Shown: one piece after another, positions 17,021-60,078 of the stretch
How the letters are laid out: each line of letters opens with the position of its first letter
Numbering within the stretch: the first letter of the stretch is position 1
NCBI GenBank assembly: GCA_951406725.2
Contig: OX597823.1
Coordinates: 114,824,001 to 114,888,000 of the forward strand
Length of the DNA: 64,000 bases
Direction of reading: 5' to 3'
DNA from: Octopus vulgaris
Lineage: Eukaryota
Position numbers and translations under genes: made by a program
The notes under the pieces: generated by a model
What the model was told of the DNA's origin: nothing
Database searches by the model: none
What the model saw: only the letters and a program-made list of their open reading frames with translations

Positions 17021-17360
17021 TGTGGCTTTCTCTCTTCCAGAGAAAGTAGGGTAGAGCCCTGACTGACGGTAGAGGTGTTATGTTATCAACTTGGAAATTA
17101 CCGTGATATGTTTTATCTTTTGTTACCAGAGAGCGTGATATATATCGACTTTATTGTAGTGCCCGAATATTGATGACCTTCGTCGAGCAATTGTGATACA
17201 TGAAGGGCGGTTCCAAACTGGAATATATAGTCAATAAGGAAATCCTAGATGTTCTATATCATGCATGGGCAACCTGCGGCCCGCGGGATGCATTCGGTCC
17301 ATGACATGTTGTTGTGAGTTTCTAGGTTACTAATTTTTACAAGCGAAGAATCTTTCTCAA

Positions 17361-18141
17361 CAATAATAAATCTCTAAACGAGATATAGACAGTAACTGCT
17401 CCATCATATAAGGGACATTATCCATTTGAATGTGGCTAGGGACAGGGCAGGGCGGTGGGGGTGTTACTGATGCATTTAGCCCCAGGCGATCATCAACGTC
17501 ACCAGATAGGCTGACACCATCACGGTGTCCTCTATCCTGCAAAGGGAGATCATTCCCCGAAGAAGCGGATGCCACATACGGACCCAGGTTTCAAGGTATT
17601 TGCCTATCGTCAACGTATGGCAGGCACCGCTCTTCGACGAACAACTTCCTGTGCAGGATATTTATATATAGATTTTCACGTAAATACATTTACTGATTTC
17701 GAAAATCTGTTCGACAGCAATAATAATTCTCTAAACGAGATATAGACAGTAACTGCTCCATCACATAAGGGACATTAGCCATTTGAATGTGGCTAGGGAC
17801 AGGGCAGGGCGGTAGGGGTGTTACTGATGCATTTAGCCCCAGGCGATCATCAACGTCACCAGATAGGCTGACACCATCACGGTGTCCTCTATCCTGCAAA
17901 GGGAGATCATTCCCCGAAGAAGCGGATGCCACTATATTTATATATAGATTTTCACGTTGATGATCGCCTGGGGCTAAATGCATCAGTAACACCCCTACCG
18001 CCCTGCCCTGTCCCTAGCCACATTCAAATGGCTAATGTCCCTTATGTGATGGAGCAGTTGCCTGGGGCTAAATGCATCAGTAACACCCTCACCGCCCTGC
18101 CCTGTCCCTAGCCACATTCAAATGGCTAATGTCCCTTATGT
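17361..18141 (-). mobile_element. HHR-bearing non-coding retroposon (family A): 357-bp unit, partial second unit and inverted segments, with 12-bp TSD
   Basis: Period of 357 bp (17371 versus 17728). 17954-18059 is the reverse complement of about 17751-17856, and is partly repeated at 18060-18141. AATCTTTCTCAA occurs at 17349-17360 and 18142-18153. Confidence 0.8.
17575..17619 (-). ncRNA. Type I hammerhead ribozyme, C3U variant (family A)
   Basis: Minus strand: CATACG-TTGACGA-TAGG-CAAATA-CCTT-GAAA-CCTGGG-TC^-CGTATG; perfect 6-bp stem I. Confidence 0.78.
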
Positions 18142-19664
18142 AATCTTTCTCAAATTTTCCAATTATTAACCTTATCATCTCTCACCTAATTTTGTATTTA
18201 ATTTCATCATCCCTCCCTCCTTCAGAGTAGAGTGGGCAAGTAATATTTCATGCATATGTGTTTTATCATGCAGACCTCTCCCACTTGGCAATGGTACGAT
18301 GCGACCCCCAGTTGACAAAAAGTTGCCCATCTCTATTCTATATATAAAAAAAAGATTCTTTGGTGATGAGTGAAACGTATTATTTGTTTATTGACCAGTT
18401 GCATGGAGATTGAGGTGTGGGTAAGCAACAACAACGAAAGTATCAATAATATCGATTGCAGTTTTCTTATCTCTGAGCACGTAATTATTGAAAAGAGAAT
18501 ATATATTTTAGGTATTGAAACTTCAAAGAATAAATGGTTGTCATATCGTGTTACCGCTTGTACGAAATTCGATATGGATGTTGGTTCTATAGTTCTGCAA
18601 TTTGTTGCTGTCATCATAACCCAGACAAAGCTGGAACATCACCATCAAGCATGATCTACTGAAATATTAAAAAGATGACCTTTTCCAAACATTTACCTCT
18701 CAATGAATATTGATTAGATTTCGATCATTGAATCTTGGTTCATTTTGTTTTTGATCTCGTCTCAGTATTTTACATGAAGGTCAAGGTTACCCTTATGTTG
18801 TTTGTTCCGAGAATCTGGTGGAATTTGTAACCTTGATCAGTTACAGCAAGTTTATTGTTTGTATGACCCTTAATTACTGATCAATTGAGATGATAACGCC
18901 TCTAACTTGTTTTCATAATCAGGATCTTAAATCAACTAGTTTTTACACAACTTCAGTCCACTTCTGCAGCTCCGCCCACGCAAATATGCTTCTATGGAAC
19001 CACAGATTCTCAGAGCTGAGCGCCAGCCTCATCCATTTTGCTAGACGAGAATTATCTACAAATGGCTTGGACACTATATTTCTTTCTTCATTAATAACTA
19101 TAGTCACATGAAAGTCTTGAAGAGGAATCAACTTATATCTTTACCAACGAATGAGATTACTTAATGGATTTGAAGACTAATGACTGCTTACGGGATGCTG
19201 ATAACAACAAATGTTCTAGTATTCTGATGTATTATTGTAACTGTACAAGAACAGAACCGGCTGCATCTGCGTTATGCCAGCGAAGCAAACTCAGGAAAAT
19301 GTATTTAGTCGATGACCGAATTAATTTTCCTTAGCGAGTCATCGATTAATATGCTTCTATAATAATAGCATTCTTGATCATTTATAACTGATACTATGGC
19401 CATTAAAACAGCCTACACAACACTACACAACACTAACAGTCAATGAAGGCGACGGTGATATACATTGCATTTCCATAATGGAAACGCAGTACTAGAGCAG
19501 CCGACACGGCATATCGGTGATACAGACAGCTCATACAGTTGAAGTTGAAGCATCATAGTGTGAATGTTTCAGCAACATGCAACGAGAAGCTTTTAGAGCA
19601 AGTAGCTCTGACAGCTTTACAGCCTTTTGGCCATAAGTTGCTGCAATACAACATGATTCTTTTG

Positions 19665-22648: not shown

Positions 22649-24344
22649 ATAAAGAAGGAAGAGAGAGGAAAGAAAGATCCGAAAGTGAGCAACAAGAGAT
22701 GGAGAAAAAAAACGAAGTGTTTACGAAGTACACATGGTGAAAGGCGGAAGTTTACGATAACAAGAGCAAAGTAGGTTTTTAAAGCCAAAAGAGTGGAGAC
22801 AGGGTTGGTAACGCAACAGATGTGTGTGTATGTGTGAGTGTGTGCGTGTGCGTGTGTGTATGTGTGTGTGAGGCGAGATAAAAAAACAAAAAATATATGT
22901 ATATGTTAGTGTGTGCGTCTGTGTGTAGGCGTGTGAGGTAGGGCGAACAGTAGTAGGCAGCAGACAGTGGTCAGTAGTAAGAAAATGAAGGAAGGAGGAA
23001 GGGAGGGAGGGGAAGGGGTGGGGGTGTATGTAACGTGCCAGCGTGTGTTGAGTAGTAGTGTGTGTGTGTGTCCAGTGTCGTGGTTGTATTAATGGCGAGT
23101 AGATTTGAAGTGTGTGTAAGAGTAATGTATATATTTAAGCAATGTGTGTGTGTGAGTGGGTGTATGTATGTGTGCGCGTGTGTGTAACAAAAAAGGGGGG
23201 TTATAAGGAAAAAGGACTCCAGCTGAGGGGAAAGATGGAAGAGTGGTCCCGCGGAGACGGGCGTGGGAGAACCCAAGGACAGGCGACGGCCCCAGGAACG
23301 AGCGGGAGGTCTCGTCGGGTCCAAGAGCGAGGTGCATGCATGCGCGTATGCGTGCGCGAACCGGCGCAAGCGCGTGTGTGCGCGCGCCTGCGAGTGTGCG
23401 CGTAAGTATGTATGTGTGTGGATGTGTGAGTGTGTCTGTGTGTATGTCTGGGTGTCAGTGTGTCCGATGAATGTATGTGAGTATGTGTGTATATATGTGT
23501 GTGCATAGATGTATGTCCGTGTGTGTGTGTGTGTATGTGTATGAGTGTGTATGTATGTACGTGTGGGTGTGTGTGTGTATGTGCATGTGTGTGCGCGTAC
23601 ATACAGGTGTGTGAGTGAGTGTGTGTGTGTATGTATGTGTGAGTGTGTATGTATGTGTGTGTAGGATGCATGTATGTGTATGGGTGTATATATGTGTGGG
23701 GGCCGTCGCCTGTCCTTGGGTTCTCCCACGCCCGTCTCCGCGGGACCACTCTTCCATCTTCCCCTCAGCTGGAGTCCTTTTTCCTTATAACCCCCCCCTT
23801 TTTTGTTACACACGCGCGCACACATACATACACCCACTCACACACACACATTGCTTAAATATATACATTACTCTTACACACACTTCAAATCTACTCGCCA
23901 TTAATACAACCACGACACTGGACACACACACACACTACTACTCAACACACGCTGGCACGTTACATACACCCCCACCCCTTCCCCTCCCTCCCTTCCTCCT
24001 TCCTTCATTTTCTTACTACTGACCACTGTCTGCTGCCTACTACTGTTCGCCCTACCTCACACGCCTTCACACAACGCACACACTAACATATACATATATT
24101 TTTTGTTTTTTTATCTCGCCTCACACACACATACACACACGCACACGCACACACTCACACATACACACACATCTGTTGCGTTACCAACCCTGTCTCCACT
24201 CTTTTGGCTTTAAAAACCTACTTTGCTCTTGTTATCGTAAACTTCCGCCTTTCACCATGTGTACTTCGGAAACACCAGTCGTTTTTTTCTCCATCTCTTG
24301 TTGCCCACTTTGGGATCTTTCTTTCCTCTCTCTTCCTTCTTTAT

Positions 24345-24379
24345 GTTTCCGACGAAGAGCTCCGCTCGAAACGTCATAC
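24345..24379 (+). ncRNA. Minimal hammerhead motif, U4C variant (family B, right arm of inverted repeat)
   Basis: GTTT-CCGACGA-A-GAGC-TCC-GCTC-GAAA-CGTC-ATAC. Confidence 0.6.
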
Positions 24380-24795
24380 CTTCCTGCTTCCATATTTCCT
24401 GAGCGCCTATTAATAATAATACTGTAATTGTTCCACGTGTTGTTGTTTTTTTGTTTTCCCGTTTGGATTAAAATTATACCACTGCGCGCCTACACGGACC
24501 CCTTGTACCTTGGATACCAATTCCCGGATTTTTGCACCTACGGATTATTGTTACCATTCTTCCGGACCCACGGATCACCTGCAACCTTCTTCCGGAGTAC
24601 CGCCATTATCGTGATTGAAAATCATTACCTAATCTGTCCGTTGACTCTCAAATCTCTTTCCTGACTTTTTTCAACTATTTTCTATTGTTTTCAAACTGTC
24701 TTCACCCTTTTTCTTCTTTTGTTGTTTTCCTTTTGTCTCTCCTTTTTCCTGTTTCGCCACCACCCACCTTTACCTGTTTGCCACCACTTCTCATC

Positions 24796-27459: not shown

Positions 27460-27805
27460 CGTCATAGCATCCTGTGGGTGTAGTCTATAAGACAGAGTAC
27501 CCTTTGACGGTACCCTGTCTTAGCACCATGTCATAGAATCCTGTGACAGCAGGATTCTATGTGATAATACCAAATTGTAATTCTCTGAGGAAATACACAG
27601 TCATAGTACCCTGTCATAGTACCCTTTATAGCACATTGCTATAGTACCCTGTCATAGCACCCTTGATAGCACATTGCTATAGTACCCTTATGGTAATACG
27701 AAACGATAATAGTCTGTGGTAGTATCCCATGTTAGTACCGTGTCTTAGCACCCTGGGGTAACACACTGTGAAACTATTCTGTGGTAATATCCTATGTTAT
27801 ACTGA
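27460..27805. repeat. Degenerate ~13-bp minisatellite (ATAGTACCCTGTC-like)
   Basis: Recurrent ATAG(T/C)ACCCT(G/T) units. Confidence 0.7.
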
Positions 27806-27809
27806 CGGG

Positions 27810-28100
27810 AAGACGCATGGCTCAGTGGTTAGAGCGTCGAGCTTACGATCGTGAGGTTGTGAGTTCGAATCGCAGACCGAGCTGTGGGTTGTGTTCTTGA
27901 GCAAGACACTTTATTTCGTGATGCTGCAGTTCACTCAGCTGTAGATATGAGTTGCGACGTCACAGGTGCCAAGCTGTATCGGCCCCTTTGCCTTTCCCTT
28001 GGATAACACTGGTGGCGTGGAGAGGAGAGGCCGGTATGCAGGGGCGACTGCTGGTCTTCCATAAACAACCTTGCCCGGACTTGTGTCTGGGAGGGTAACT
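27810..28100 (+). mobile_element. tRNA-derived SINE (family S3); fragments at 16290-16365(-) and 35075-35280(-)
   Basis: A box TGGCTCAGTGG, B box GTTCGAATC, followed by GTGTTCTTGAGCAAGACACTT (SINE central domain). Confidence 0.8.
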
Positions 28101-34775: not shown

Positions 34776-34789
34776 TATATATATATATT

Positions 34790-35070
34790 AAATTTCTGAT
34801 CGAGAGGTAATCGGTAACTGTACGGAATCGTAAAATATATTTGCCAACCAAATGTGTTAGTCCCATAGAGGACGATATTTCTGTTGTTTTTAGCCCCACG
34901 AAGACATCTCTTCCAGTTGGTTAACGTCACACTGTCTGTTCCGATTCGTATTTGCGAGGGGAAGTCATCGCCCCCATCTCTAGCCTTACAAGACACACGC
35001 AGACCCAGATTTCTGGGTAGTTACCCGTCTTCAGTGTGTGATAATCACCCGCTAGTGATGAAAACTTATT
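34790..35070 (-). mobile_element. Diverged family A HHR element
   Basis: Colinear motifs with 17370-17640 (GTAACTG..., TTAGCCCCA..., GCNAGGGGAAGTCAT, then the HHR). Confidence 0.6.
34996..35040 (-). ncRNA. Type I hammerhead ribozyme (family A)
   Basis: Minus strand: CACACA-CTGAAGA-CGGGT-AACT-ACCCA-GAAA-TCTGGG-TC^-TGCGTG. Confidence 0.8.
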
Positions 35071-36100
35071 CAGCCACATTTAGTCGGCAAGGAGATTCAA
35101 CGTGACACAGAGCGTGACAAGGTTGGCCCTTTGAAATACAGGTACTCCTCATTTTTGCCAGCTGAGTGGACTGGAGCAACGTGAAAATAAAATGTCATAC
35201 ACAACGCGTCACCGAGAAATGAACTCACGAAATTGTTATGACGAGCCGAATACCCTAACCACTAAGCCATGCACCTTCACATATATAGGCATATGCACGT
35301 GCTTAAACACACAAACGTAAACTAGCGACTATTTAGATCCTTGTGTCCACCTCACAACCTAAGGTTGGCTTCGACAAACCTAGCACCAAAGCGGAACTAT
35401 CTGTAATTATCCCGTGTTTCCTATTCAATCACCATCCATCTAGTTCTAAATTATTCAGTGTAATCTTAGATGCCATATTTTAACCATTGTAGAATGAGAT
35501 TTATAGATAACATGACCGCTATTTCTAACGTGAGGCATGACCACGTAAAGACTTCCCATTGGTCTGATTTCCGGGTGAATCATTTCACTTTACTTGCTTC
35601 CGTACACATGATTTCCGTTTGCATTGACCACGCTTGAGTATAATGATTTCTACGACGTGACATTGTATGGCCGACAGATCACCGGAAGACCTGACATTCG
35701 CTTATGATTTAGTATGTCACCGAAATTTGTACATTTTCACTTAAACATAGAATCGTATGATAGGGCCTCCAGTTATTTCAAAGTATGAGTGCTCAGTCGT
35801 TCCAACAAGGGAACCATCATTTATTGAATTAGTGTGAAAATTGTCTGAGTATTCGGCAGATACCTGTGCTCTTAACATATTTCTCAGACTGAATTAGCGT
35901 GACACAGTGAAAGAAGACTGGGTGTTTGAATGAAACGTACATAATACCCGGCGATCTTCTAGTTTCCAGTTTCCGTCTATTCATAGCTTTGTGGCTTGAA
36001 GCAAGAAATTTAACTTAAAAAAATTACGCCGTGCGATCAGACGTTCACTGTGAAAAAATTAGAGCGCTCAGAGCGAGCCTCGCCGGCTTGCATTCCAAAA

Positions 36101-36511: not shown

Positions 36512-37064
36512 CCCTGATGCAGTACCAGGCAGTGGCTCTCATGGCTTCTCATCTTAACTGATTGGAAGTGTTATCACGTACATTGTTTTGTCTTGGTATA
36601 AAAGATGGGCTACAGCAAATATTCTGCTCAATACCACAGATTTGCTCGTCAGTTGCTTGAACTTAACCAGTTGAGCATGTCCCTTGGTGGCTGACGATAT
36701 GTACATCTCTGATCACGAACAGAAGTAGTGGGGGAGCATCATAGCCTTGTGTTGAGAGGGATTCTTTGGGATTTGGATAATTCACCTCTGGAAACATGGG
36801 TGGTTCTTTCAACATCCTTCAACAACTCTTATTCAGGGACCTTTTGAGCGGGATGGGCTACTCAACCAGAAGAAAATTCTAACTGGGCCCCACCTGCAAG
36901 GTCATGTGCTGTTTATCTTGATATGAAATCACCATGTCGCGCACATATGGTTGTGATGCATGTGCCTGGTGTACCCTTATCAGACGGGTAGTCATGATGG
37001 GTATATTGGGCTTCGTATATCTTACCCCAGTGTCACTTTGATGGCATGAACTGCTCTCTCACTC
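36511..37064 (+). mobile_element. Non-coding (TAA)n-associated retroposon
   Basis: Bounded by (TAA)n; its 3' ~315 bp match the reverse complement of 54448-54761. Confidence 0.75.
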
Positions 37065-37123
<59 letters not shown>

Positions 37124-37125
37124 TG

Positions 37126-37159
<34 letters not shown>

Positions 37160-37167
37160 CAATAATG

Positions 37168-37220
<53 letters not shown>

Positions 37221-37227
<7 letters not shown>

Positions 37228-38254
37228 CTGTTCTCAGTATTTAAGGAAGCTGACAAATACAAACAAGAAATCATACCACCTAATAAACATGAAGAAGAAG
37301 AAGAAGATGAAGAAACAACAAAAGCTATAAAACAAATGAAATCCAAACTAAAAACAGAACAGCAACGAACCATGATAAAACGATGGCAAGAAAAGCCCCT
37401 TCATGGTAAATACTGCACTAAACTAAACGCAAAAGAAATAGACAAAGAAAAATCCCAGCAATGGTTGAGAAGCTCAGGACTCAAAGCAGAAACAGAGGGA
37501 TTTTTAATTGCAGCACAAGACCAAAGCCTCCCCACCAGAAATTACCAAAAACATGTAATGAAAAGAAATATTACAAGTAACTGCAGAATATGTGGAGATG
37601 GACAAGAAACAATAAATCATATTATCTCTAGCTGCCCAGTCCTGGCTAAGAAGGAATATATTCACAGACATGACAGAGTTGGAACCTACATACATTGGAA
37701 GCTATGCCAACATTATGGAATAACAACAGAAAAAAGATGGTATAGGCACACACCAGAAAAGGTCACAGAAAACGAGAAAGCAACCATACTCTGGGATATG
37801 CCGATACACACAGATAGAGAAATTAAGGCCAACAGACCAGATATAGTTGTCAGAGATCATGAAGAAAAAAAATGCTTTTTAATTGATGTATCAATACCGG
37901 CAGATGACAACGTGTCTCTAAAAGAAATGGAGAAACTCTCAAAATACAAAGACCTGGAAATAGAGGTAACTAGAATGTGGAATCTGAAAACAGAAACAAT
38001 TCCTATCATAGTAGGTGCATTAGGCATGATAAAAAAATATTCAGACAAATACATAACAAAAACACCAGGACTTACAAACACATATAACATACAGAAAATT
38101 GCACTACTAGGCACTGCCCACATCCTACGCAGAACACTTTCCATACAATAACCATCAGAGCATCACAACAAATCACAGCACCTACCCAAGGCACACAGAG
38201 CTGCGCTCGGTAGTGAAGTGAAAGCACGCTATAAAAATAAAAATAAAACTACTG
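37221..38254 (+). mobile_element. 5'-truncated R4/Dong-type non-LTR retrotransposon in a (TAA)n array
   Basis: RLE ORF tail plus a ~100-bp 3' UTR ending AAACTACTG(AAT)n; (TAA)n on both sides. Confidence 0.9.
37222..38151 (+). CDS. C-terminal part of a LINE ORF: CCHC zinc knuckle plus PD-(D/E)xK restriction-like endonuclease (no start codon, 5'-truncated)
   Basis: CRICG..ETINHIISSC, RHD, LWD, RPDIVV, IDVS, EKLSKY, PIIVGALG, QKIALLGT; about 310 uninterrupted codons. The poly-Ile prefix in the ORF track is microsatellite. Confidence 0.88.
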
Positions 38255-43361: not shown

Positions 43362-43560
43362 ATTCTTCATCGAAAACCGGTGAGTGCCGTACGCTGAAGA
43401 CAGGCAAATACCTAGAAACTGCAGTCCGTGCGTATCACTTAGGTCGACGAGAGAGGGATGACCTCCCTTTGCAAATACCATAAGGGCACAGATAGTGTGC
43501 CTAAAGCCAGCTGGAGACGATGATCTCCCGAGGCTAAAAGCTACAGTAACACCCACCCTT
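43362..43560 (+). mobile_element. Diverged family A HHR element nested in a hAT MITE
   Basis: Reverse-complement similarity to 17460-17640 (HHR, CTCCCTTTGCA, GATGATC, GGCTAAA, CAGTAACACCC). Confidence 0.65.
43389..43431 (+). ncRNA. Type I hammerhead ribozyme (family A)
   Basis: GTACG-CTGAAGA-CAGG-CAAATA-CCTA-GAAA-CTGCAG-TC^-CGTGC; 5-bp stem I with one G-U. Confidence 0.85.
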
Positions 43561-44024
43561 AGTGGTTAGCCATATTGATTTGGCTAGTATACTTTACATT
43601 ATATATATTGTTTCCAGTATAAATTAATATTACTAAGAAATATTACCGGTCCCAGACACATTAGAAAAAAAACGGCCAGTACGCCACATTAGATAGTTTG
43701 AGAAGCACCGGTCTAAGTGACACGATGCAATATCGAAAGGTCATCTCCTCTGACTTTACACTTCTCTAACCATCCTTTCTCTTCGCATAGAAGTTACCAA
43801 TAGTTGATTGTTAGCATCTTACAAGTCATGATAATCAAATTACGCTTGACAACCGATGCTGGTGTGTTTACGTCAAAAGAGACCAATAGAATAAGTACTA
43901 GGCTTACAAAGAATAAGTCCTGGCCTCCATTTGCTCGACTAAAGGCGGTGTTCCAACATGGCCACAGTCAACTGACTGAAACAAGTAAAAGAGTAAAAGA
44001 ATATATATATATCAATAATAATAA

Positions 44025-49190: not shown

Positions 49191-49449
49191 TATATATATA
49201 TATACTGACTCCGGTATATATATATATATATATATATGTCTTAGTAATACCAGCGATAATAATTATTTTTATTTTATCGCAATTTGATTTGTTTACATAT
49301 TTCTCGATAAATTACGAGCGCCAGGCGATATACCAGAATTCCTAGTTTTGTCGGGACGTTCGGAGTCTGCGCAGTGATATGATTAGTTAGGGAGAGTAAA
49401 TCATTAGAAGCACATGCTTCTAGTGAGTTAGGATCCCAGAAAGACAGGG

Positions 49450-49521
49450 TCTCACTGAAGAATTCTCCCTGAGCAAATAAATTATCTTTATTGCTGAAAA
49501 GAAAGAAACTGCAGTCTGAGA
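49450..49521 (+). ncRNA. Type I hammerhead ribozyme, canonical core (tandem unit 1)
   Basis: TCTCA-CTGAAGA-[stem II TTCT/AGAA plus AGCAAATAAA/TTTATTGCT hairpin]-GAAA-CTGCAG-TC^-TGAGA. Stem I is TCTCA/TGAGA; stem III is the palindrome ACTGCAGT; GUC site ends at 49516. Confidence 0.85.
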
Positions 49522-49846
49522 ATTACCGGTTTAGTAAATGTTTTTTATCTTCATTTCACTTAATTTATCAAGCTTCTGTATTCCTAGCACATATTTCGCC
49601 TTAATGTACTGATATATGAAAAATATATGGCTTGTGTTAGTAATACCAGCGATAATAATTATTTTTATTTTATCGCAATTTGATTTGTTTACATATTTCT
49701 CGATAAATTACGAGCGCCAGGCGATATACCAGAATTCCCTAGTTTTGTCGGGACGTTCGGAGTCTGCGCAGTGATATGATTAGTTAGGGAGAGTAAATCA
49801 TTAGAAGCACATGCTTCTAGTGAGTTAGGATCCCAGAAAGACAGGG

Positions 49847-49918
49847 TCTTACTGAAGAATTCTCCCTGAGCAAATAAATTATCTTTATTGCTGAAAAGAA
49901 AGAAACTGCAGTCTGAGA
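49847..49918 (+). ncRNA. Type I hammerhead ribozyme, canonical core (tandem unit 2)
   Basis: Same as unit 1 except stem I TCTTA/TGAGA (C-G becomes a U-G wobble, so pairing is kept). GUC site ends at 49913. Confidence 0.85.
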
Positions 49919-50082
49919 ATTACCGGTTTAGTAAATGTTTTTATCTTCATTTCACTTAATTTATCAAGCTTCTGTATTCCTAGCACATATTTCGCCTTAA
50001 TGTACTGATATATGAAAAATATATGGCTTGTGTTAGTAATACCAGCGATAATAATTATTTTTATTTTATCGTAATTTGATTT

Positions 50083-50113
<31 letters not shown>

Positions 50114-50418: not shown

Positions 50419-50461
50419 GTAGTTGATGAAGCGTAACAATGCTGAAACGCATGCGTCCTAC
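50419..50461 (+). ncRNA. Type I hammerhead ribozyme, C3U variant (solitary)
   Basis: GTAG-TTGATGA-AGCGT-AACA-ATGCT-GAAA-CGCATGCG-TC^-CTAC; stem III is the 10-nt palindrome ACGCATGCGT. Confidence 0.78.
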
Positions 50462-54068: not shown

Positions 54069-55590
<1,522 letters not shown>

Positions 55591-59857: not shown

Positions 59858-60078
59858 CATACATCACACACACACACACACTTGTTATATATGTGTATGT
59901 GTGTAATGAATGATTGACTACTGGTAAAACTTCGTTTGATGACGTAATGTAATATGTATATACAATAAATGGTTAGATCTGTTTACCACTAAAACTCCAA
60001 TTTGAACTGTGACTAAAATAAAATTGCTACTGTAGCAGCCTACCAACGAACGGCTATAAGTGGTTCATCATTAAGCGG

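What the first reader, a model, noticed from the sequence alone, without database searches (positions are those of the whole stretch)
34790..35070. Covariation across three diverged family A hammerheads
Seen in the copies at 17575, 34996 and 43389: stem I CATACG/CGTATG, CACACA/TGCGTG, GTACG/CGTGC; stem II AGG/CCT, GGGT/ACCC, AGG/CCT; stem III CCTGGG, TCTGGG, CTGCAG. Core bases are kept while flanks have diverged strongly, and the first stem II position is mismatched in all three (U.U, C.A, C.A). Inference: selection for ribozyme structure across subfamilies, so self-cleavage is probably needed for propagation.
Basis: partly seen in the sequence, partly recalled or inferred. Interest (0 to 1): 0.72.

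Follow-up and report, generated by a model that had tools for sequence, protein, structure and literature searches.

The report
Three copies of a hammerhead retrozyme
Three related copies of an abundant small repeat carry a hammerhead-ribozyme fold whose paired bases change together; this likely reflects selection on the RNA of the parent jumping elements, an ordinary pattern already described in other animals, and it does not show that self-cutting is required for spreading.

Summary
Three type I hammerhead motifs sit at 17575-17619 (-), 34996-35040 (-) and 43388-43432 (+). They belong to one repeat family, about 68% identical over 160-200 nt. Pairing is kept in 48 of 51 cells, and 6 of 17 pairs change on both sides, above shuffle and neutral controls. 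Corrections: the 17575 copy has U3.G8, not C3-G8; the 34996 copy has an A.C break in stem I; only the core, not the stems, is more conserved than the flanks. Contigs from four public runs show a very abundant family. They list variants at N7, loop 2 and U4 (U4C), and G/C at the 'always mismatched' stem II base. Anatomy (357-nt tandem without ORF, 12-bp target duplication, inverted 5' pieces, palindromic helix III) fits a non-LTR retrozyme likely mobilised by Penelope-like elements; truncated Penelope ends are the rival. Covariation, the stem II mismatch and dimer-type helix III are all in print for this class. 'Self-cleavage needed' is not shown: every copy spans an uncut cleavage site, and hammerhead-free Naiad elements thrive. 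New member of a known kind.

The parts
34787..35069 (-). Family copy 'c35': 5'-truncated, ends in a (TA)n tract
   Evidence: nhmmer match 34794-35069 (the profile includes this copy); alignment; sequence
34996..35040 (-). Type I hammerhead of c35: core starts 35034, predicted cleavage 3' of 35002; C.A at 10.1/11.1, A.C mismatch in stem I, self-complementary helix III (self-duplex -4.6 kcal/mol)
35071..35090 (+). Short inverted fragment resembling the element's 3' part, at the 5' end of c35 (inferred Penelope-type inverted 5' piece)
   Evidence: pairs 16 bp with 34836-34855 in the fold; sequences side by side
35093..35285 (-). tRNA-like SINE head and body, cut off where c35 begins (separate element; SINE label recalled)
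17361..18141 (-). Family insertion 'c17': two inverted 3' fragments (17954-18059, 18060-18141), a 24-nt linker fragment (17934-17957), then about 1.6 head-to-tail units of 357 nt; no ORF with a Pfam match
17575..17619 (-). Type I hammerhead of c17: core starts 17613, U3.G8, U.U at 10.1/11.1, loop 2 CAAAUA, self-complementary helix III (-9.8 kcal/mol); predicted cleavage 3' of 17581
17349..17360 (.). 12-bp target-site duplication, left copy
18142..18153 (.). 12-bp target-site duplication, right copy
43365..43597 (+). Family copy 'c43': 5'-truncated, lacks the last ~40 nt seen in c17 and c35, inserted in another repeat
   Evidence: depth edges, and empty-site joints 43361>43600 and 43363>43606, one contig each; alignment
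43388..43432 (+). Type I hammerhead of c43: full canonical core from 43394, C.A at 10.1/11.1, loop 2 CAAAUA, perfect 8-nt palindromic helix III (-11.1 kcal/mol); predicted cleavage 3' of 43426

Best explanation
The three stretches are copies of one abundant repeat family with a covarying type I hammerhead fold, most likely a non-autonomous non-LTR retrozyme (unit about 357 nt) that Penelope-like elements would copy into the genome. Shown: homology, covariation, a 357-nt tandem without ORF, a 12-bp target duplication, inverted 5' pieces, and thousands of related contigs. Inferred: tandem source arrays are transcribed; neighbouring hammerheads pair through their palindromic helix III into a double hammerhead and cut slowly; monomers are ligated into circles, or stay uncut. 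A Penelope-type reverse transcriptase and endonuclease start at a fixed 3' end and copy through the cleavage site, leaving 5'-truncated, partly inverted copies. Selection on the source RNAs explains the compensatory changes between subfamilies. The solo copies here have no partner hammerhead and are probably inert.
For: Covariation. Canonical geometry: helix I 6 bp plus internal loop, helix II four positions plus 6-nt loop, short helix III with a palindromic loop. This matches the 'canonical' metazoan type I motif that works as a dimer (PMC4209133) and occurs in 150-450-bp tandem retrozymes with long TSDs (PMC7229834; mussel units 350-390 bp). c17: 357-nt period, 12-bp TSD, inverted 5' pieces, as described for Penelope-type insertions. 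Helix III self-duplexes are -4.6 to -11.1 kcal/mol while its hairpin has probability 0.00 in all three monomers; 3938, 2476, 1506 and 194 contigs laid from 4 of 4 runs (three organism codes). Listed variants inside the ribozyme fall on 6 of 9 free positions and 1 of 34 core or paired positions (p 9e-5; 30 of 70 rows were hidden). No RT or GIY-YIG match beside any copy. Retrozymes derive from Penelope pLTRs in Xenopus (bioRxiv 2026.07.22.740005).
Against: No cleavage, RNA circle or partner RT was shown. No unit-length 'goes back' joint appeared, though the stretch laid lacks the linker and could not show one. Only one locus shows the 357-nt tandem, and its upstream unit lacks the hammerhead. 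In predicted folds the active monomer is not the most stable state, and c35 has zero ensemble probability for stems I-III. The constrained double hammerhead is 9-21 kcal/mol above the cofold minimum (no tertiary terms). The HHR strand folds no better than its antisense strand. Rfam gave no hammerhead match. In Xenopus only 1 of 9 predicted retrozyme dimers cleaved in vitro.
Confidence: 0.6

Rival explanations
1. The copies are truncated 3' ends (pLTRs) of autonomous Penelope-like elements whose hammerhead lies behind the ORF. c17's 357-nt tandem is a one-off gutted or template-jumped insertion, not a self-propagating retrozyme.
For: Depth rises about 5-10-fold from the ribozyme (139-164k in X1) to the 3' part (0.7-1.7M), as 5' truncation predicts (the tool warns that depth is no copy number). 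Inverted 5' pieces and a ~40-nt tail present in two of three copies are standard for Penelope-like elements. Octopus vulgaris has 31 recently active Penelope-like families (PMC13282606). Earlier agents reached this reading in other genomes (unchecked).
Against: The geometry is the canonical type, not the long-helix-II minimal type typical of Penelope pLTRs. No coding remnant lies next to any copy among 146 of 331 ORFs scanned. The 75-nt linker in c17 leads straight from one 3' end to the next hammerhead. A similar junction start occurs in 16 contigs of run X4, which also fits a Penelope body start.
Confidence: 0.3
2. The fold is selected, but as a weak or non-cutting RNA structure (for example a signal for the reverse transcriptase or for RNA stability). 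Cleavage is dispensable for copying.
For: U4C is 63, 37, 55 and 21% of depth in the four runs; c17 has U3.G8; stem II starts with a mismatch. All copies span an intact cleavage site. An inverted-tail junction at 43536, which excludes the ribozyme, recurs in 36, 36, 9 and 5 contigs. Naiads lack hammerheads and outnumber hammerhead-bearing families.
Against: Catalytic positions G5, A6, G8, A9, G12-A15.1, U16.1 and C17 are invariant in all three copies and have no listed variant. A U3-A8 form is implied by loose ends (8 and 5 contigs); this is a known active compensatory pair. U4C and U10.1.U11.1 are known to keep some activity (PMC3088659).
Confidence: 0.15
3. The covariation is chance, or an artefact of aligning three unrelated or neutrally decayed sequences on a motif.
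For: Only three rows; the structure was drawn from them; non-core positions are no more conserved than flanks.
Against: Homology extends 160-200 nt. Neutral simulation P <= 0.002; shuffles 0/500 and 5/500. All three family loci found in the window carry a hammerhead.
Confidence: 0.02

Closest known systems
Metazoan non-LTR retrozymes with canonical type I hammerheads (coral, mussel, axolotl; Cervera and de la Pena 2020, PMC7229834)
   Same: Type I motif with short palindromic helix III; tandem unit of 357 nt (mussel 350-390, axolotl 330/350); no ORF; GC below 50%; TSD longer than 4 bp; mismatch at the base of helix II (U.U in axolotl HHR_Amex2); thousands of copies.
   Different: Expression as circles and cleavage are untested here. 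Only one 1.6-unit tandem was seen, with one hammerhead. A C.A mismatch at 10.1/11.1 was not found in the texts I read. No cephalopod family is described in the papers returned.
Hammerheads in pLTRs of Penelope-like elements (Cervera and De la Pena 2014, PMC4209133; Lunse et al. 2017, not held, known from citing passages)
   Same: Families full of compensatory changes within one genome, palindromic 15.2-16.2 and loop 3, a U3-A8 core variant, predicted dimer action, solo dispersed copies, tandem and inverted insertions.
   Different: No RT/GIY-YIG ORF seen. Helix II is canonical-sized with a 6-nt loop rather than 7-8 bp. There is a two-sided mismatch rather than one extra nucleotide between 9 and 10.1.
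Dolichopoda pDo500 satellite hammerhead (Martinsen et al. 2010, PMC2837043; abstract read)
   Same: The same argument: hammerhead more conserved than the rest of the repeat, compensatory stem changes, selection inferred, function unclear.
   Different: That study used 198 sequences of a satellite and found stems more conserved than loops; here three dispersed copies, with extra conservation only in the core.

Membership tests
Type I hammerhead ribozyme | Core C3 U4 G5 A6 N7 G8 A9 / G12 A13 A14 / A15.1-U16.1 / H17 with three helices, helix I open | tested here: met
   12 of 12 core letters in c35 and c43; 11 of 12 in c17 (U3.G8)
Type I hammerhead ribozyme | Helices supported by covariation | tested here: met
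   48 of 51 cells paired, 6 of 17 pairs two-sided; three rows only
Type I hammerhead ribozyme | Paired 10.1-11.1 (usually G-C) | tested here: not met
   U.U, C.A, C.A in the three copies; G at 10.1 (2-26% of depth) and C at 11.1 (11-25%) occur in the family, unphased; U.U is a published tolerated variant
Type I hammerhead ribozyme | Match to an Rfam hammerhead model | tested here: not met
   no match at gathering score in the window, nor at E <= 10 around each of the three copies
Type I hammerhead ribozyme | Site-specific self-cleavage | not testable with these tools
   needs in vitro transcription
Non-LTR retrozyme | Head-to-tail units of 150-450 bp without ORF | tested here: met
   357-nt period at c17, 97.7% identity over 218 nt, no Pfam match; one locus of three
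Non-LTR retrozyme | At least two consecutive units each with a complete hammerhead ('active' by Li et al. 2026) | tested here: not met
   c17's upstream unit lacks the ribozyme; c35 and c43 are solo; other loci of the genome could not be examined
Non-LTR retrozyme | TSD longer than 4 bp, no LTR/PBS/PPT | tested here: inconclusive
   12-bp TSD at c17; none resolved at c35 or c43; PBS/PPT not searched for
Non-LTR retrozyme | Expressed as linear and circular monomer RNA | not testable with these tools
   only contigs could be laid; RNA status of X13 is a guess
Penelope-like element (autonomous) | RT plus GIY-YIG ORF between pLTRs | tested here: not met
   no such Pfam match in 146 of 331 non-repetitive ORFs of 45 aa or more, chosen as the longest and those near the copies; parent elements elsewhere could not be searched
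Penelope-like element (autonomous) | Insertion anatomy: 5' truncation, partial tandem, inverted 5' piece, 30-40-nt tail | tested here: met
   against the description

The most novel reading that the evidence does not exclude
The family is a natural allelic series of hammerhead strength. Subfamilies with weakened cores (U4C, U3.G8, C.A or U.U at the stem II base) amplified beside canonical ones (G10.1-C11.1, U3-A8), and a short hammerhead-free derivative amplified too. Selection would then be for slow, dimer-gated cleavage that spares the reverse-transcription template. A pyrimidine at 10.1 lets G8-A9-Y10.1 pair with the cleavage triplet as an off state (probability 0.33 in c43, about 0 in c17 and c35). 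Relating cleavage rate to subfamily copy number would test what hammerheads do in Penelope and retrozyme life cycles.
Probability: 0.2. Interest if true: 0.5.

Novelty: new member of a known kind. Interest (0 to 1): 0.2.

Why it matters
As observed it adds one more animal lineage (probably an octopus; inferred from recalled SINE and microsatellite features) to a known class, and the covariation argument is already published for that class. Its modest value is that the role of hammerheads in Penelope-like elements and retrozymes is still open. This family has thousands of copies and natural core variants, so it suits a test of cleavage rate against amplification.

Tried and rejected
Own-genome search: no genome held, so no genome-wide alignment and no R-scape; the parent element stays unknown. 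Pattern scan for the core plus stem II: 0 hits in viral contigs and 14 loci in metagenome contigs. None looks like a family member: 3 are hammerhead-like with a G-C stem II base and different flanks, 11 share an unrelated sequence without the GUC triplet in register. Rfam: no hammerhead match. First pair count had my structure string off by one column; corrected. Whole-unit folding: z -1.2 to -3.6 on the ribozyme strand and similar on the antisense strand, so no evidence for a strand-specific circular fold. A 16-bp helix closing c35 was first read as conserved RNA structure; rejected, since it is absent from c17 and c43 and fits an inverted insertion piece. SINE-hammerhead chimera at c35: not supported, since the other two copies have different upstream neighbours and the window's related SINE (27800-28100) carries no hammerhead. 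No RNA holder listed among runs on record as RNA; this is no evidence on expression. A covariance model from the three copies found no fourth family member; the hit at 60060 is a (TA)n artefact. Earlier findings by place and by sequence: none. Lunse et al. 2017 not held. The supplement of PMC7229834 could not be read and file 1 of PMC4209133 was not searched; either may list cephalopod motifs or C.A variants.

Full report
Setting. The window is AT-rich, microsatellite-laden animal DNA full of SINEs and other repeats. It looks like an octopus genome; this label is recalled, and no call names the organism. No whole genome was held.

1. The observation. A descriptor scan found type I hammerhead motifs with cores at 17613 (-), 35034 (-) and 43394 (+), plus an unrelated one at 50423 (+). 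The three regions are homologous outside the ribozyme: 68% over 197 nt and 69% over 163 nt to the 43.4-kb copy, alignable over about 280 columns. [quoted passage not shown] A neutral star-tree simulation at the observed 64% identity of paired columns expects 36-40 paired cells, with P <= 0.002 for both measures at all four transition biases tried. With three rows and a structure drawn from them this is good but not R-scape-grade support.

Corrections. The core is 11 of 12 invariant: c17 has U3 facing G8. c35 has an A.C break in helix I. The ribozyme is 25 of 45 invariant against 69 of 180 for the 3' flank (p 0.043), but without the core it is 14 of 33 (p 0.70). So stems have diverged as much as flanks; what is kept is pairing plus core. 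One 3' block is 21 of 37 invariant.

2. Anatomy. c17 (17361-18141) is bounded by a 12-bp target duplication. On the ribozyme strand it reads: two inverted 3' fragments, a 24-nt linker fragment, a partial unit, then a full 357-nt unit. The partial unit lacks the hammerhead and resumes 5 nt after the predicted cleavage site, a single suggestive event. c35 (34787-35069, the finding's coordinates) is 5'-truncated, has a 20-nt inverted piece at its 5' end, follows a truncated SINE and ends in (TA)n. c43 (43365-43597) sits inside another repeat: one contig each in two runs joins across it. c17 and c35 end at the same aligned place, and c43 stops about 40 nt earlier. No RT or GIY-YIG match lies beside any copy (146 of 331 ORFs scanned). 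Helix III is self-complementary in all three (self-duplex -9.8, -4.6, -11.1 kcal/mol) and its hairpin has zero predicted probability, the signature of hammerheads that act as dimers.

3. The family elsewhere. Laying contigs of four public runs on c43 at 80% likeness gave 3938, 2476, 1506 and 194 contigs, under three organism codes. Of 70 variant rows 40 were shown. Inside the ribozyme they fall on N7, 10.1, 11.1, three loop 2 positions and U4: 6 of 9 free positions against 1 of 34 core or paired ones (p 9e-5; hidden rows could change this). U4C makes up 63, 37, 55 and 21% of depth. G at 10.1 (2, 9, 10, 26%) and C at 11.1 (13, 21, 11, 25%) imply, unphased, a subfamily with the canonical G-C pair, so the mismatch is not a fixed trait. 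Loose ends before 43402 (8 and 5 contigs) read as a U3-A8 core with G10.1. Depth rises about 5-10-fold towards the 3' part; the tool warns this is no copy number, and diverged subfamilies drop out of the 5' part. A junction at 43536 to an inverted 3' tail recurs in 36, 36, 9 and 5 contigs, hinting at a hammerhead-free derivative.

4. Mechanism. Most likely (0.6) this is a non-autonomous retrozyme. Tandem source arrays would be transcribed and cut slowly by double hammerheads, the RNA circularised or left uncut, and a Penelope-type enzyme would copy it from a fixed 3' end through the cleavage site. Selection on source RNAs would give the compensatory changes; the solo copies are probably inert. 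Shown: homology, covariation, anatomy, abundance. Inferred: transcription, cleavage, circles, partner enzyme. Against: the active fold is not the predicted minimum in monomer or dimer, and the ribozyme strand folds no better than antisense. Rivals: truncated pLTRs of an autonomous Penelope-like element (0.3); a fold kept for a non-cutting role (0.15; this can hold together with either origin); chance (0.02).

5. What is known. [quoted passage not shown] Cervera and de la Pena 2020 (PMC7229834; abstract, parts 2-3 of 6 and discussion) define non-LTR retrozymes, show circles in coral, mussel and axolotl, and report a U.U mismatch at the base of helix II. Perreault et al. 2011 (PMC3088659; passages and section 8) report U10.1-U11.1, U3-A8 and U4C variants. 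Martinsen et al. 2010 (PMC2837043; abstract) made the same selection argument for a cricket satellite. Li et al. 2026 (bioRxiv 10.64898/2026.07.22.740005; parts 1-3 of 5) derive retrozymes from pLTRs and found cleavage in 1 of 9 dimers tested. Craig et al. 2021 (bioRxiv 10.1101/2021.04.23.441226; passages) show that hammerhead-free Naiads proliferate. Searches for an octopus hammerhead family returned no paper describing one; an O. vulgaris repeat annotation has no mention of hammerhead or ribozyme (PMC13282606; passages), while the giant squid genome paper lists 235 Rfam hammerhead_1 loci (PMC6962438; passage). Unread supplements may list such motifs.

6. Verdict. The inference of structural selection is supported and is textbook for this class. 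The claim that cleavage is needed is untested and partly contradicted. It works like a dimer-type type I hammerhead in a retrozyme or pLTR. Strict 'active retrozyme' membership is not met at these loci, since none has two hammerhead-bearing units. New member of a known kind; interest 0.2.

Noticed in passing
window 49237-50092 (+): A 396-bp tandem (2.2 units, 99% identical) in a (TA)n tract, flanked by short inverted CCGG-TATA ends. Each full unit holds a type I hammerhead (near 49450-49521 and 49847-49918) with a long helix II, an A.A mismatch at its base and the same palindromic helix III as c43. Unrelated to family A by blastn. With two consecutive intact hammerheads it is the better 'active retrozyme' candidate in this window.
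   Followed up: partly
window 50419-50461 (+): A solo type I hammerhead of a third family, with U3.G8, a paired 5-bp helix II and a 10-nt palindromic helix III. It is the second U3.G8 core in the window.
   Followed up: partly
window 43505-43560 (+) and the matching parts of c17 and c35: A 3' block (about 40 nt) as conserved as the ribozyme (21 of 37 invariant), with a covarying hairpin, inside the region of highest contig depth: a candidate promoter or reverse-transcriptase recognition signal.
   Followed up: no
window 17530-17660 (-): A long helix encloses the c17 hammerhead. Letters upstream of 43366 in one X4 contig are complementary to 43469-43477, suggesting the same long-range helix with compensatory changes in the c43 subfamily (table 5c).
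   Followed up: partly
window 43536 onward (loose ends): Recurrent junction of an inverted 3' tail to 43536 in all four runs: possibly a ~100-bp hammerhead-free mini-element with inverted ends.
   Followed up: no
window 17265-18335: c17 lies inside an element with short terminal inverted repeats, hAT-like by recall.
   Followed up: no
window 37042-38151 (+): C-terminal part of a non-LTR retrotransposon ORF (zf-RVT, E 1e-5) next to (TAA)n; resembles Dong/R4-type elements with a restriction-like endonuclease (recalled). An inverted related stretch lies at 54287-54761.
   Followed up: no
window 22920-24430: Nested near-identical inverted repeats (281-nt arms, 99%) around a (CA)n tract: possibly a truncated-inverted retroelement insertion or an assembly duplication.
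   Followed up: no
L004, L010, L013: Metagenome contigs with a hammerhead-like core, G-C at the stem II base and a similar 6-nt loop 2, but flanks unrelated to this family.
   Followed up: no
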